Positions 13,436-30,448 of a stretch of DNA of 64,000 bases are shown in pieces. Under the pieces are notes generated by a model. The model was given only the letters and a program-made list of their open reading frames with translations. It was not told the origin of the DNA and ran no database searches. Both the position numbers and the translations under genes were made by a program. Source of the stretch: a virus (taxonomy: Duplodnaviria > Caudoviricetes); the IMG/VR virus record IMGVR_UViG_3300034170_000057. One strand, 5' to 3'. The stretch's first letter is position 1. Each line of letters opens with the position of its first letter.

Positions 13436-14674
13436 ATGTCCAAGAACAAAGAAGTTACCGCCGCACAACAGAACGCTATCCGTCTGATCATCACAGAGCA
13501 AATGGGACTGAAACGCGGGCACCCGATTTGTTCCACCGCTTCGATTGAACACTCCCTGAAAATCGACGATTTGGATCTGGACGAAATCGTCATGAACATG
13601 GAAGAGGAATTCGAAATCGCAATTCCAAACCATGTAGTTAAAAAATGGAACATCGTCTCGGATATGGAACAGTTCATCGCGAACAAAGCGCCGAAGGATT
13701 ACGGGAGTTCGTTCCGGGTTGCACAGCCGAAGAAAATGGCTGTGAAGAAATCCACGGCTGTTGCGCAGCCTGCGAAGTTCCTGAATGGCCGTTCGCACAA
13801 CCTCATGCAGGTTATGGACGAACTTGAGAAAAAGTTGAAGCCTACGAAAGCCACGCAGGGTTTCACAATGCGCAGCGAAGGCACCAGCACCATCGCCTGT
13901 TACGCGGCTGACCCTTCGGTGCCGTTTGCGCGTGCTGTGGTATCGGTAAGCGAAGGCTTTAACGGGTTCCGTTTGTACGTCGGCAAAATGCTGGTGATCG
14001 AACACAACATCGGTTCCGAATCGCACATTCTGGAATTGTGTGAGTTGGCGCGCCATGCGGGCGCATCCATGCCGGTAAGTCTCGACGACTGGATGATTAA
14101 CGTAATCGTGCGTTACGTATCGTGTGTGAAGAAAACGCTGCGATATATGCAGCACCTGAGCAATCACAAAGACGCCATGCAGCAGTTGTATAATTTGCAA
14201 AACACGTTCGAATTAAAAATCTCGACACGGGTTTTCGATTTCTACGCTGGCGACCACCTTCTGGAAAATTGTTCGGCGGATGTGCTGCGCGTGTTTACCG
14301 AAATGCTGGAATCGGTTCACACCAAAGACGGCGTTGGCTACACATACGGTTCTTCGTTCCGTGAGGGTGACGACGAAGACGACGATGGCGAAGACGAATT
14401 CCCATCCGAAACTATTATCGTCGAGGACGAAGACGAAATCGTGGATTTGCTGGCTGCCGTTTCTACGCCCGGTCTGGTCGCCATTTTCAACCACATCGCG
14501 AATCTAGGCATGGGCGATTTTGACAATTCCGAAGTTTACGAATTGTCGGGTATTAAACGCCGGATCGAAATCATCCACGAACTCTGCGACAACCTGCACA
14601 TGGCGGCGCTGGTGGAATGCGCACAGGCCGTCGATTTGAAACCGGGTGACGCGGCAATTTTTGCCGGGAGATAA
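13436..14674 (+). CDS. multidomain protein with N-terminal ACP-like domain (Ser to Asp) and acidic tract
   Basis: IITEQMGLK...ASIEHSLKIDDLDLDEIVMNMEEEFEIAIP aligns with ACP IIGEQLGVK...[30 protein letters not shown]. Confidence 0.8.
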   Translation: MSKNKEVTAAQQNAIRLIITEQMGLKRGHPICSTASIEHSLKIDDLDLDEIVMNMEEEFEIAIPNHVVKKWNIVSDMEQFIANKAPKDYGSSFRVAQPKKMAVKKSTAVAQPAKFLNGRSHNLMQVMDELEKKLKPTKATQGFTMRSEGTSTIACYAADPSVPFARAVVSVSEGFNGFRLYVGKMLVIEHNIGSESHILELCELARHAGASMPVSLDDWMINVIVRYVSCVKKTLRYMQHLSNHKDAMQQLYNLQNTFELKISTRVFDFYAGDHLLENCSADVLRVFTEMLESVHTKDGVGYTYGSSFREGDDEDDDGEDEFPSETIIVEDEDEIVDLLAAVSTPGLVAIFNHIANLGMGDFDNSEVYELSGIKRRIEIIHELCDNLHMAALVECAQAVDLKPGDAAIFAGR

Positions 14675-26901: not shown

Positions 26902-27204
26902 ATGGCACGCATAGCAAATCACGTTATGGCTGCGTCGAAAGAAATCGAAAAACTTTCTTTCGAATTGAAGAAAGGTAATCGGCTTTTAACCACCAGTGAA
27001 ATTAAAGCGCTGGACGTGCTGACTCACGAAGTTTACGCGTTGCGTGACAACCTCATAAAGGCGCTGCGTGGGCAAGGTATGCCTGTAAAAGATATCGCTG
27101 CAATTTTCGATGTATCTCCGGCCCGTATAAGCCAGCTGACTTCAGTCAAGCGAACCAAACCACGGGTGCCGGATATTATTCCAAGAGGTGACAATGAAAC
27201 TTGA
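26902..27204 (+). CDS. HTH protein
   Basis: LRGQGMPVKDIAAIFDVSPARISQL. Confidence 0.75.
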   Translation: MARIANHVMAASKEIEKLSFELKKGNRLLTTSEIKALDVLTHEVYALRDNLIKALRGQGMPVKDIAAIFDVSPARISQLTSVKRTKPRVPDIIPRGDNET

Positions 27205-27664
27205 TTGGGATGCGATCATGAAACGTATGCCGATTTACGCATACGAATATGAGGCGGTCGGCCTCAACGTGATGACGCCTAGCATTGATTACTGGCGCCC
27301 ACACGAACACCCGCCGCACCACATGCCACCGCGTGGCTGGACGGGTATCGACTACGACCTGAGCTACGATAACCTGTGCAAGGCACTCGACGGCTGGTTG
27401 AAAGAGGATTTCAATCCAAACGAAAAAGTGGTGTTGCTGGATATCGACACCGGCCATTTTTCTAACACGTTTCTTTACCGCGACAATTTGGATTCTACGC
27501 TGAAAGAAATCGCGGCGTTGAAGGCAGGCAACATCGAGGAAGTTGGGCAGCTAACGAAGAACTGGAAGTTTATCGTCTACCGGTGTGAATCTGATCCAGA
27601 TTTCGAGTTTACGCACATGATGAAAATCGTGACGAAAACCAAAGCAGAGCGAAAAGGCAAATGA
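27194..27664 (+). CDS. hypothetical protein
   Basis: GAGGTG RBS, ATG 27194. Confidence 0.75.
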   Translation: MKLDWDAIMKRMPIYAYEYEAVGLNVMTPSIDYWRPHEHPPHHMPPRGWTGIDYDLSYDNLCKALDGWLKEDFNPNEKVVLLDIDTGHFSNTFLYRDNLDSTLKEIAALKAGNIEEVGQLTKNWKFIVYRCESDPDFEFTHMMKIVTKTKAERKGK

Positions 27665-29126: not shown

Positions 29127-29327
29127 ATGGAAGTGGAGGATGATATTCCATTTGCACCAGCCGAGCCGTTGACAGCGGAACAGCTAGAAATAATTGCTGC
29201 GATTAAATGCCAGACCTGTAGCGACCACGGATTCATCGGCGGTTTAGTTCCGTGGGGCGATGGTCAGGTAGATAGCGTTTGTGAACCGTGCCCTGACTGC
29301 AATATGGAAGACTTGAAAAATGCGTGA
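29127..29327 (+). CDS. small Zn-finger protein
   Basis: CQTC...CEPCPDC. Confidence 0.7.
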   Translation: MEVEDDIPFAPAEPLTAEQLEIIAAIKCQTCSDHGFIGGLVPWGDGQVDSVCEPCPDCNMEDLKNA

Positions 29328-29589
29328 ATATTCTAACATACGTCGTGAAGACGAAGGCCATCGTTTCTTCCCTGAAGTGGGTTGCAACCTTAACGATTTT
29401 ATCCGCGAAGTTCTGCACTTGATGCAGCACCGAAACTTCCCGATCCAGCCGTTTAAAGCGGTGTGCGTTTTCTGTGAAACTTCGACGTTCGAAATTGAAC
29501 TTGATCACCACGACGATGACGAATCCGCCATCCGAAAATACCGTGCGGAATTCGATGAAATTTGCCGCGCCTATGGAGACGACGTATGA
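29320..29589 (+). CDS. hypothetical protein
   Basis: 89 aa, GGAAG RBS. Confidence 0.7.
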   Translation: MREYSNIRREDEGHRFFPEVGCNLNDFIREVLHLMQHRNFPIQPFKAVCVFCETSTFEIELDHHDDDESAIRKYRAEFDEICRAYGDDV

Positions 29590-30170
29590 GCCTGTCCAAA
29601 AAGCAACAGCAACTCGCATTCGAACTGGTGTGCGCCCATGACCACAAGCTGGCTACGGCGCTGCGCGAGGCCTTCACGGATTCCGACCGGTTGACCTATC
29701 TGGAAAAGCGCACGGCCCTTTCGTCTAGCGGCCTGTCGATCAATCCAAACATGTACCAGAAACCCCCGGCAAAAACATTCAGTTTTATGTGGCGCTTTGA
29801 ATGCACTGATCCGAAGCCGTCACTGCGTGCAGCAATCGACGACGCAGCGAAAAATTACCCGCTGCCAGATGTGGACGCGTGGGACGAAGACCACACAGAA
29901 GGCGAATCTGTATGCGGACGTTTGAACGATGCTGCATACGAAAAAATGGTACGTGAAATTCACGACATGGTTTCTTGCACCATCGGTAGCAAACAGTTCC
30001 AATCGACATTCGCAGACATGGGTGCCGACAATCTGGATATGGTCGATCTGACCCTGAGTATCGAACAGCATTTCGAACTCGAAATTCCTGATGCAGATGT
30101 GGACCTGTGGAAAACTACGCAGGACGTTATCAACTACGTGCAACGCCGTATATCCGAGGTGAAGAAATGA
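29586..30170 (+). CDS. protein with C-terminal ACP-like domain (Ser to Asn)
   Basis: STFADMGADNLDMVDLTLSIEQHFELEIPDADVDLWKTTQDVINYV aligns with ACP helices II-IV. Confidence 0.8.
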   Translation: MSLSKKQQQLAFELVCAHDHKLATALREAFTDSDRLTYLEKRTALSSSGLSINPNMYQKPPAKTFSFMWRFECTDPKPSLRAAIDDAAKNYPLPDVDAWDEDHTEGESVCGRLNDAAYEKMVREIHDMVSCTIGSKQFQSTFADMGADNLDMVDLTLSIEQHFELEIPDADVDLWKTTQDVINYVQRRISEVKK

Positions 30171-30448
30171 CCGACACTACAACGCCAGAAGAAAAAACAA
30201 TTCAGTCTTTGTTCACAGCGGATGGACAACTGCGTCATAACACGGTGAAGGTTAACGGCTCGCCAATGCAGACGCCGCCCCTGCCCCTGTTCGACGCAGA
30301 CGGATTTGCATCTACTGCCATGCGTTCCGCAATTCGTAGCCGCATGATGTACAAGACGCCGCTGGCCCACACCGATTTGGCCCGGCTGTTTTATTCAATT
30401 GTGGCGCAGGAAACTTACGACGTTCCGGCAGGGAAAATGTACGGATGA
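30167..30448 (+). CDS. hypothetical protein
   Basis: GAGGTG RBS, ATG 30167. Confidence 0.7.
   Translation: MTDTTTPEEKTIQSLFTADGQLRHNTVKVNGSPMQTPPLPLFDADGFASTAMRSAIRSRMMYKTPLAHTDLARLFYSIVAQETYDVPAGKMYG

What the first reader, a model, noticed from the sequence alone, without database searches (positions are those of the whole stretch)
29937..30160. Second, independent Ser-less ACP domain (DNL), this time C-terminal
Seen: STFADMGA-DNL-DMVDLTLSIEQHFELEIPDADVDLWKTTQDVINYV (DNA gcc gac aat ctg) is a clear ACP helix II-IV match, fused behind an unrelated ~115-aa N-terminal region. The two ACP copies are divergent, sit at opposite ends of their proteins and lose the Ser through different substitutions (D and N). 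No PPTase, KS or acyltransferase lies next to either. Inference: repeated loss of the Ser suggests selection for an apo-locked ACP mimic family in this phage. This is the best candidate in the window for an undescribed host-takeover or counter-defence system.
Basis: partly seen in the sequence, partly recalled or inferred. Interest (0 to 1): 0.85.

Follow-up and report, generated by a model that had tools for sequence, protein, structure and literature searches.

The report
Serine-less acyl-carrier domain, jumbo phage
A giant Pseudomonas phage gene ends in a well-folded copy of the bacterial acyl carrier protein that has asparagine where the cofactor-bearing serine should be, so it cannot carry fatty acids and most likely works by docking onto other proteins; close relatives of the same gene carry Ser, Glu or Asp at that spot.

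Summary
Gene 29586-30170 (+) encodes 194 aa: a phage-specific N-domain, an acidic linker and a C-terminal acyl carrier protein (ACP) domain. The ACP call rests on Pfam PP-binding above its cut-off, PDB ACPs at E 3e-9, and an AlphaFold model that superposes on ACPs at 1.3-1.4 A. Asn149 (AAT, 30030-30032) starts helix II, where the phosphopantetheine Ser belongs.

The phage is Lu11-like. Orthologues carry Ser (most, including distant ones), Asn, Glu or Asp at this site. Both Ser-less alleles recur in several sequence variants, and the ACP domain is under purifying selection between them (pN/pS 0.24, CI 0.14-0.35). It is therefore neither a sequencing error nor decay.

A second family (13436-14674) has an N-terminal ACP-like domain that never has Ser (D/G/T/E). 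No phosphopantetheinyl transferase, ketosynthase or acyltransferase was found in the window. Lu11 and HRDY3 also have no transferase.

Best reading (about 0.5): a cofactor-independent docking module. A host-ACP mimic or counter-defence role is untested. "Repeated" loss within this family is not proven, because an AU test cannot reject a single loss.

This scan has noted Ser-less phage ACPs before on other DNA (Vi01-like, N4-like and another Lu11-like phage). I found no paper describing them.

The parts
29586..30170 (+). Whole gene (194 aa plus stop), protein P0001. Its ATG overlaps the stop of the upstream ORF (ATGA), and its stop overlaps the ATG of the downstream ORF (ATGA).
   Evidence: orthologues 53-74 % identical in 10 related phage contigs
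29586..29870 (+). N-terminal phage-specific domain (aa 1-95; pI 8.6). It is the most conserved part of the protein. It is found only fused to this ACP domain in Lu11-/HRDY3-like phages.
   Evidence: pN/pS 0.07-0.31
29871..29936 (+). Acidic, length-variable linker (aa 96-117; net charge about -6). Modelled as disordered.
   Evidence: (alignment)
29937..30167 (+). ACP-fold domain (aa 118-194; pI 4.5). Helices at 110-133, 149-163, 169-172 and 178-193.
30030..30032 (+). AAT = Asn149, at the position of the phosphopantetheine-bearing Ser (first residue of helix II). It is one transition away from the AGT Ser codon of the closest Ser-bearing orthologues.
30108..30110 (+). TGG = Trp175, at the position of E. 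coli AcpP Ile62 (my own placement from the known AcpP sequence). Trp occurs here in 11/13 family members, against 2/53 other viral ACPs.
13436..14674 (+). The other Ser-less ACP fusion (P0007, 412 aa). Its ACP-like domain is N-terminal (about aa 8-85), with Asp45 (13568-13570) at the Ser position. Orthologues have D, G or T there and the Lu11 homologue has E; none has Ser.
30167..30448 (+). Downstream, translationally coupled 93-aa gene (P0006). It is conserved (59-87 % identity) in the close relatives, matches no known family and is not an ACP. It is a candidate partner only.

Best explanation
The gene encodes a conserved accessory protein of Lu11-like jumbo phages: a phage-specific N-domain joined by a floppy acidic linker to an ACP-fold domain. 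In this phage the ACP domain has Asn where the phosphopantetheine Ser should be. It therefore cannot be loaded with the cofactor and cannot carry acyl groups (shown from sequence, plus the established chemistry of ACP).

The domain keeps the acidic 'recognition' helix II and the E-I-P-D loop that ACPs use to dock on partner proteins, and it is under purifying selection. I therefore infer that it works as a cofactor-independent docking module. It would hold the N-domain on, or block, a protein that has an ACP-binding site. That protein could be a host ACP client or another phage protein. The partner is unknown.

The Ser/Asn/Glu/Asp polymorphism among orthologues means that, at least in several lineages, the selected function does not need the cofactor.
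For: - ACP fold and position of Asn149.
- Docking residues are kept: D148, D151, D154, E160, F163 and E166-I167-P168-D169 are invariant or nearly so in the family.
- Purifying selection acts on the ACP domain between two Ser-less alleles (window Asn vs L088 Glu): pN/pS 0.24, bootstrap 95 % CI 0.14-0.35, 0/1000 replicates >=1 (JC-corrected 0.14).
- The alleles are stable: the Asn allele occurs in 4 sequence variants on at least 6 contigs and the Glu allele in 7 variants, and all keep Asn or Glu.
- Ser loss is unusual among viral ACPs: 52 of 53 other viral ACP ORFs have Ser.
- No PPTase, KS or AT family hit in the window, and no PF01648 match in the whole Lu11 and HRDY3 genomes.
- A second family in the same phages (P0007) has never kept Ser, so Ser-less ACP folds are durable in this lineage.
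- Precedents: P. falciparum mitochondrial ACP (Ser to Phe) works purely by binding Isd11-Nfs1 (PMC8547962). ACP also appears as a bound subunit of MukBEF, NFS1-ISD11, MmpL5 and FtsHi motors among the fold matches.
Against: - No partner has been identified, and the neighbouring genes have no known function.
- The upstream neighbour is not conserved.
- Most orthologues, including the deepest lineages (HRDY3-like, L095), keep Ser. This argues that the ancestral and perhaps the main function does use the cofactor.
- The DSLD motif is degraded further in some Ser-less alleles (L003/L004: D151 to A/S, D148 to N).
- The ACP domain evolves about 2.5 times faster than the N-domain between Ser-less alleles, against about 0.9 times within the Ser clade. 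This fits partial relaxation as well as adaptation.
- The domain is no closer to Pseudomonas AcpP than to other ACPs, so it is not a close copy of the host protein.
Confidence: 0.5

Rival explanations
1. Disabled carrier. The family is a genuine carrier protein, loaded by the host AcpS. The window's allele has lost that job. The ACP domain persists only as a folded, soluble appendage of the functionally important N-domain, with no specific binding role.
For: - Ser is kept in most orthologues and in three deep lineages, with two different codon families (TCR and AGY).
- AAT is a single transition from AGT.
- The N-domain is the more conserved half.
- HRDY3 keeps a canonical DSL ACP right next to its Ser-bearing orthologue.
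- Further erosion of the DSLD motif is seen in L003/L004.
Against: - The ACP domain is under clear purifying selection between two Ser-less alleles.
- Helix II acidic residues and the EIPD loop, which are surface rather than core positions, stay conserved.
- Ser-less alleles persist across many variants and contigs.
- No truncated or frameshifted copy was seen among 14 orthologues.
Confidence: 0.2
2. Apo-locked mimic of host AcpP, a specific form of the docking idea and the first reader's reading. The unloadable domain competes with host ACP for clients such as PlsB, AcpS, Fab or Lpx enzymes, and so shuts down or redirects host lipid metabolism or a defence that depends on it.
For: - Apo-ACP is reported to inhibit glycerol-3-phosphate acyltransferase, and growth, more strongly than holo-ACP in E. 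coli (review PMC3896788; the primary source as I recall it is Keating, Carey and Cronan 1995).
- The recognition helix is kept.
- The ACP domain is a local divergence hot spot between otherwise near-identical phages (65 % vs 92 % nt identity), as expected of a part that faces a host target.
Against: - No experimental or contextual link to any host target or defence system was found.
- The domain has no special similarity to Pseudomonas AcpP.
- The same review says SpoT does not bind apo-ACP, so not all clients accept a cofactor-free ACP.
- Ser-bearing alleles are common.
Confidence: 0.2
3. Acidic nucleic-acid mimic or general polyanion. On this reading the ACP fold is only a scaffold for negative charge, for example in anti-restriction or DNA-binding-protein trapping.
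For: Net charge is about -7 on the domain and -6 on the linker. The phage group is reported to have restriction-resistant DNA (PMC5977210), so restriction is a live issue for it.
Against: The conserved positions are the canonical ACP docking and core residues, not charge in general. No similarity to known DNA mimics was seen in the fold searches.
Confidence: 0.05
4. Artefact: a sequencing error at one base (AGT read as AAT), or a decaying pseudogene.
For: Asn and Ser codons differ by one transition.
Against: The identical protein occurs on 2 contigs, and three further variants on 4 more contigs all have Asn. The reading frame is intact, with coupled start and stop. pN/pS is well below 1.
Confidence: 0.02

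Closest known systems
Bacterial type II acyl carrier protein AcpP (Pfam PF00550; e.g. PDB 2EHS Aquifex, 2X2B B. subtilis, 1L0H E. coli, 7PDI P. putida)
   Same: Same four-helix fold (target TM about 0.8, rmsd 1.3-1.4 A). 21/48 identities with Aquifex ACP over helices II-IV (counted from the alignment). The acidic helix II and the E-I-P-D loop are kept.
   Different: Asn replaces the phosphopantetheine Ser. Trp stands at the Ile62-equivalent pocket position. The domain is fused behind a 117-aa phage-specific region. No fatty-acid synthesis genes are nearby.
Plasmodium falciparum mitochondrial ACP (Ser to Phe; PMC8547962) and related apicomplexan Ser-less ACPs
   Same: An ACP fold that has lost the Ser, is kept by selection and works only by protein binding. 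The organism or compartment has no dedicated PPTase or FASII.
   Different: The residue there is hydrophobic Phe, which packs against the LYR protein Isd11. Here it is polar or acidic (N/E/D). No LYR-family protein was seen in the window. The Ser state here is polymorphic among close orthologues, not fixed.
Orthologues in named phages: HRDY3 XDJ15383 (236 aa, annotated 'acyl carrier protein', DSL) and Lu11 gp346 / AFH14884 (140 aa, 'hypothetical', DDL)
   Same: Same syntenic position downstream of the 671-aa DUF8224 gene, and a C-terminal ACP domain. HRDY3 shares the N-domain motif.
   Different: HRDY3 keeps Ser and has a free canonical ACP immediately downstream. Lu11 has Asp and a shorter, different N-terminal part.
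Apo-ACP as an inhibitor of E. coli PlsB and of growth (summarised in PMC3896788)
   Same: A cofactor-free ACP that acts by occupying ACP-binding sites. This is the mechanistic model for a 'mimic'.
   Different: That case is an overexpression artefact of the host's own protein. No such effect has been shown for any phage ACP-like protein.
Ser-less ACP look-alikes noted earlier by this scan in Vi01-like (Ackermannviridae), N4-like and another Lu11-like phage (AI notes)
   Same: Phage ACP folds with D/E/Q at the Ser position, read as binding modules.
   Different: Those are mostly free-standing small proteins in which the Ser is always absent. Here the domain is fused, and orthologues switch between Ser and non-Ser.

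Membership tests
PP-binding / ACP fold (Pfam PF00550, PHROG phrog_5934) | Sequence match above the curated threshold | tested here: met
   28.8 bits vs cut-off 20.8; phrog_5934 E 4.5e-13; all 12 family members match PF00550
PP-binding / ACP fold (Pfam PF00550, PHROG phrog_5934) | Four-helix bundle with a long helix I, recognition helix II, short helix III and helix IV | tested here: met
   AF2 helices 110-133, 149-163, 169-172, 178-193 with pLDDT 83-89; Foldseek top 50 all ACPs, rmsd 1.3-1.4 A
Functional (holo) acyl carrier protein | Conserved Ser in the D-S-L motif at the N-terminus of helix II, which accepts 4'-phosphopantetheine | tested here: not met
   Asn149, codon AAT at 30030-30032; 52/53 other viral ACPs have Ser at this column
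Functional (holo) acyl carrier protein | A phosphopantetheinyl transferase and acyl-handling enzymes (KS, AT, etc.) available in the same genome or locus | tested here: inconclusive
   None among 111 window ORFs and no PF01648 in the Lu11 and HRDY3 genomes. The window's own whole genome is not held, and the host AcpS could serve Ser-bearing alleles.
Functional (holo) acyl carrier protein | Actual modification and acylation in vivo | not testable with these tools
   Needs mass spectrometry or labelling
Cofactor-free ACP subunits that bind LYR proteins (P. falciparum mACP type) | Ser replaced while the domain is kept under selection | tested here: met
Cofactor-free ACP subunits that bind LYR proteins (P. 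falciparum mACP type) | An LYR-motif (Complex1_LYR) partner | tested here: inconclusive
   No such Pfam hit among 111 window ORFs at E<=1e-3; the rest of the genome and the host were not searched
Known anti-phage defence or counter-defence protein families (PADLOC-DB) | Match to a defence-system model | tested here: not met
   No hit for P0001 or P0006; only a sub-threshold pVip hit for P0007 (E 0.005, no passing stretch)

The most novel reading that the evidence does not exclude
Lu11-like jumbo phages carry a set of unloadable ACP mimics (this C-terminal fusion and the N-terminal fusion at 13436-14674) that dock onto host ACP-client enzymes to throttle or redirect host lipid or envelope metabolism, or an ACP-dependent defence. 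The Ser/Asn/Asp/Glu switching at the cofactor site, together with cassette-like exchange of the ACP domain between near-identical phages, would record an ongoing conflict with that target. This could include re-evolution of Ser (AGY) from an Asn intermediate.
Probability: 0.2. Interest if true: 0.8.

Novelty: new variant of a known kind. Interest (0 to 1): 0.55.

Why it matters
Databases call these phage genes 'acyl carrier protein', but this one cannot carry anything.

If the domain is a docking module or a mimic of the host carrier, it points to a way for phages to reach the many enzymes that recognise ACP (lipid, lipid A, biotin and lipoate synthesis, MukBEF, SpoT). That route has not been described in the literature I could search.

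The family also offers a natural experiment. Near-identical phages differ mainly in whether the cofactor site is Ser, Asn or Glu, so allele swaps could show directly what the cofactor is needed for.

The finding also corrects the idea that Ser-less ACPs are an apicomplexan oddity.

Tried and rejected
- Whole-genome search of the window's own genome for PP-binding and PPTase families: no genome is held.
- AlphaFold2 with only the 10 orthologues: unusable (mean pLDDT 48). The 66-row alignment fixed the ACP domain only; residues 44-75 and 102-111 of the N-terminal part stay below pLDDT 50.
- N-domain identity:
  - An exhaustive phmmer search found only the family itself (P0030, P0033) plus five long repetitive 'proteins' that look like translated repeats.
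  - The Atlas feature and structure searches gave nothing above chance level.
  - A weak TagF_N hit in P0030 (E 9e-4) was not seen in any of 12 other members, so I rejected it.
- Word-based search with the ACP domain alone: no candidates.
- P0006 (downstream) as a degenerate ACP, by analogy with the free ACP at that position in HRDY3: rejected. There is no BLASTP alignment and no Pfam hit.
- A universally conserved, translationally coupled upstream partner: rejected. Two unrelated gene families alternate there.
- PADLOC defence models: nothing.
- Literature searches for phage ACP mimics or Ser-less phage ACPs: nothing found.
- Complex prediction (P0001 family with P0006 family): the machine could not be reached in five attempts, so there is no result.
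- Sequencing error or pseudogene: rejected.
- 'Repeated independent loss within this family': neither shown nor refuted.

Full report
WHAT IS THERE

The finding lies in a 585-nt gene, window 29586-30170 on the + strand. Its ATG overlaps the stop codon of the upstream ORF, and its stop overlaps the ATG of the downstream ORF (ATGA in both cases). It therefore sits in a tightly packed run of small + strand genes. The 194-aa product (P0001) has three parts:
- a mildly basic N-terminal region (aa 1-95, pI 8.6);
- an acidic, length-variable linker (aa 96-117);
- an acidic C-terminal domain (aa 118-194, pI 4.5).

The Asn codon AAT is at 30030-30032.

IS IT AN ACP?

Yes, by every test available.
- Pfam PP-binding scores 28.8 bits against a curated cut-off of 20.8.
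- The phage family phrog_5934 'acyl carrier protein' matches residues 119-191 at E 4.5e-13.
- 115 distinct PDB sequences match and all 60 listed are ACPs. The best is at E 3.3e-9, and some alignments cover all four helices.
- A first AlphaFold2 run with only ten orthologues was useless. With 53 other viral ACP sequences added to the alignment, the C-terminal domain came out at pLDDT 83-89 with the canonical four helices, and helix II starts at Asn149.
- Foldseek against the PDB returned ACPs in all 50 top places, with target TM about 0.8 and rmsd 1.3-1.4 A over 70-75 residues.

Asn149 occupies the position of the Ser that carries 4'-phosphopantetheine. Asn cannot form that phosphodiester (established ACP chemistry), so this domain is not a carrier.

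WHOSE GENE IS IT?

The window is part of a jumbo phage related to Pseudomonas phages Lu11 (280 kb) and HRDY3 (314 kb). The gene is a syntenic core gene of that group. In twelve related contigs it lies a few small genes downstream of a 671-aa DUF8224 gene and upstream of the same 175-, 265-, 80- and 361-aa genes. The neighbours have no known function. A virion structural gene lies 4 kb downstream.

THE SER SITE IN ORTHOLOGUES

This is the most informative result. The residue and codon at the site are:
- Ser, AGC/AGT: six close orthologues (L087, L090-L094).
- Asn, AAT: the window.
- Glu, GAA: L088.
- Glu, GAA/GAG: L003 and L004. L004 has also lost the preceding Asp.
- Asp, GAT: Lu11 gp346.
- Ser, TCG/TCA: HRDY3, the HRDY3-like P0033 and the more distant P0030.

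Ser is therefore the likely ancestral state. The family is polymorphic, not apo-locked.

The Ser-less state is thus unusual. It is concentrated in this phage group.

NOT AN ERROR, NOT DECAY

- The exact P0001 sequence is on two contigs. Three further variants of the Asn allele, on four more contigs, all keep Asn.
- Seven variants of the Glu allele all keep Glu.
- Between the Asn and Glu alleles the ACP domain has pN/pS 0.24 (bootstrap 95 % CI 0.14-0.35, no replicate >=1). This is the same as for the N-domain (0.21). The Jukes-Cantor corrected value is 0.14.
- All 45 pairwise comparisons give dN/dS below 0.55 in the ACP domain wherever dS is not saturated.

There are nevertheless signs of altered constraint.
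- Between Ser-less alleles the ACP domain changes about 2.5 times faster than the N-domain at the protein level. Within the Ser clade it changes about 0.9 times as fast (ratios taken).
- The D-x-L-D motif erodes further in L003/L004.
- Even the Ser clade has D-S-V-D and an Asp at the Glu41-equivalent position, where 53/53 other viral ACPs have L and E.

HOW MANY LOSSES?

On the ML tree of the whole protein, with the Ser column masked, the Ser-TCR lineages branch first. The ten close sequences split into (L003, L004), (window, L088) and the Ser-AGY clade. That tree needs three Ser/non-Ser changes.

Nucleotide parsimony at codon position 2 on that tree favours a non-Ser ancestor of the ten and a regain of Ser through AAT to AGT (my reasoning). 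Internal support is weak, however. An AU test does not reject placing the four close Ser-less sequences in one clade (p 0.26), or all five Ser-less sequences on one side of a branch (p 0.105).

Repeated loss within this family is therefore possible but unproven. What is firm:
- The site has visited at least four residues.
- The two Ser codon families cannot interconvert without a non-Ser step or a double change.
- The window's AAT is one transition from AGT.

MOSAICISM

L088 is 91-95 % identical in DNA to L087/L093 across the N-domain, and again 87-98 % from the gene's last codons (from window position 30128) into the downstream genes. Across the linker and ACP domain it is only 64-65 % identical. 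There it is somewhat closer to the window over the core of the ACP domain (72 % at 29978-30127).

The ACP domain thus behaves as an exchangeable or locally fast-evolving cassette, in a genome region that is generally patchy.

THE SECOND COPY

A small HMM built from four family ACP domains finds one more hit in the window's six-frame ORFs, at E 2.3e-10: the N-terminus of the 412-aa product of 13436-14674 (P0007).
- It matches phrog_5934 at E 9.5e-9.
- It matches Pfam PP-binding only weakly (E 0.061).
- Its Ser position is Asp45. In eleven orthologues the position is D, G or T. In the Lu11 homologue (241 aa) it is Glu. It is never Ser.

Because the P0001 family still has Ser-bearing members, its loss or losses occurred after the two families separated. 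At least two losses therefore occurred in this phage lineage.

The two domains are only 27 % identical over 41 residues. P0001 is closer to the free ACP of HRDY3 (33 % over 84 residues). All three share a Trp at the position that I place at E. coli Ile62. Trp is found there in 11/13 family members, against 2/53 other viral ACPs. This hints at one phage ACP ancestor rather than independent captures. A bulky Trp at a pocket-lining position would also fit a domain that does not bury an acyl chain (inference).

ENZYMES

No PPTase, ketosynthase or acyltransferase family appears among 111 window ORFs. The only Pfam hits at E<=1e-3 are NUDIX, RlaP, KTSC, HTH_7, KORA and Phage_g100. The gene itself was left out of that set by my mistake and was scanned separately. 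PF01648 is absent from the complete Lu11 and HRDY3 genomes. The window's own genome is not held. Any loading of Ser-bearing alleles would have to be done by the host AcpS.

MECHANISM

Shown:
- an intact, selected ACP fold that cannot be phosphopantetheinylated;
- conserved docking features (D148, D151, D154, E160, F163, E-I-P-D 166-169);
- fusion to a conserved phage-only domain through a flexible acidic linker.

Inferred: the domain works as a cofactor-independent docking module that brings the N-domain to, or blocks, a protein with an ACP-binding site. I give this about 0.5.

Precedents:
- The P. falciparum mitochondrial ACP has Ser replaced by Phe and works only by binding Isd11-Nfs1 (PMC8547962).
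- ACP is a bound subunit of MukBEF, NFS1-ISD11, MmpL5 and FtsHi motors (titles).
- Apo-ACP inhibits PlsB more strongly than holo-ACP (PMC3896788).

The specific 'host AcpP mimic / host takeover' version (about 0.2) has no direct support. The domain is no closer to Pseudomonas AcpP than to other ACPs. The same review notes that SpoT does not bind apo-ACP.

The main rival (about 0.2) is a disabled carrier, kept only as a folded appendage. It is favoured by the prevalence of Ser in orthologues and by the faster evolution of Ser-less alleles. It is disfavoured by the conserved surface residues and by the pN/pS result.

I could not test a candidate phage partner. That candidate is the conserved, translationally coupled 93-aa P0006. 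The complex-prediction machine was unreachable in five attempts.

NOVELTY

Phage 'acyl carrier protein' genes are routinely annotated. One paper calls them rare in phages and reports one in virions (PMC7760394). I found no paper that notes Ser-less phage ACPs or proposes a function for them. The apicomplexan study found Ser-less ACPs outside Apicomplexa only in Vitrella.

This scan has, however, already noted Ser-less ACP look-alikes on other DNA: in Vi01-like phages, N4-like phages and another Lu11-like phage (AI notes). The general phenomenon is therefore not new to the scan.

What this locus adds:
- the fused architecture;
- the Ser/Asn/Glu/Asp polymorphism among close orthologues;
- the codon evidence for passage through non-Ser states;
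- the cassette-like divergence of the domain.

I rate it a new variant of a known kind, with interest 0.55.

Noticed in passing
L048:5959-6246 (+) (IMGVR_UViG_3300024975_000025, 53.8 kb, high G+C): An unrelated viral contig encodes a small, probably free-standing ACP-like protein with A-D-E-L-D (Glu at the Ser position), and also a Trp just before helix IV. It was the only Ser-less case among 53 other viral ACP ORFs.
   Followed up: partly
window 29840-30127 compared with L088, L087, L093: The linker plus ACP domain is a local divergence island. L088 is 64-65 % identical to L087/L093 there, against 91-98 % in the flanks. This suggests domain-level recombination or very fast local evolution.
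   Followed up: partly
window 30167-30448 (+): A 93-aa gene whose ATG overlaps the stop of the ACP-fusion gene. It is conserved at 59-87 % identity in all eight close relatives examined, which is more conserved than the ACP domain, and it matches no family. In HRDY3 the same position holds a canonical DSL ACP instead.
   Followed up: partly
L086:1003-1728 (-) = Lu11 JQ768459.1 around 275416-275514: Lu11 encodes a 241-aa protein with an N-terminal ACP-like domain that has Glu at the Ser position (A-D-E-T-D). It is apparently the counterpart of the window's 13436-14674 gene, so both Ser-less fusion families are old in this phage group.
   Followed up: partly
window 29320-29589 (+) and the equivalent position in L087-L096, L001: Two unrelated small gene families alternate immediately upstream of the ACP-fusion gene. 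One is a Cys-containing 'SNIRRE...CVFCET...YGDDV' type, as in the window. The other is a basic 'GRR.W...PGLHLM.GYWY' type. Some phages carry both in tandem.
   Followed up: no
window 26907-27215 compared with L087/L088: Another sharp divergence patch: 50-61 % identity to relatives that are 92-99 % identical to each other there, and about 90 % identical to the window on its upstream side (identity stays around 70 % for about 450 nt downstream). It looks like a swapped gene cassette at the 100-aa ORF 26902-27204.
   Followed up: no
P0031, P0032, P0034-P0036 (hits of the N-domain search): Long (707-3040 aa) repetitive database 'proteins' match residues about 40-100 of the N-domain in 5-8 stretches each. 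P0035, the only one I read, looks like translated repeat DNA, and Pfam hits on P0031, P0034 and P0035 are scattered and inconsistent. I treated all five as artefacts.
   Followed up: partly
BFVD matches: ACP-fold domains fused to larger phage proteins seem widespread. Examples are Pseudomonas phage pf16 (163 aa), Burkholderia phage BcepSaruman (617 aa) and an Aeromonas phage 65.2 'lysis inhibitor' (411 aa). Their Ser state was not checked.
   Followed up: no
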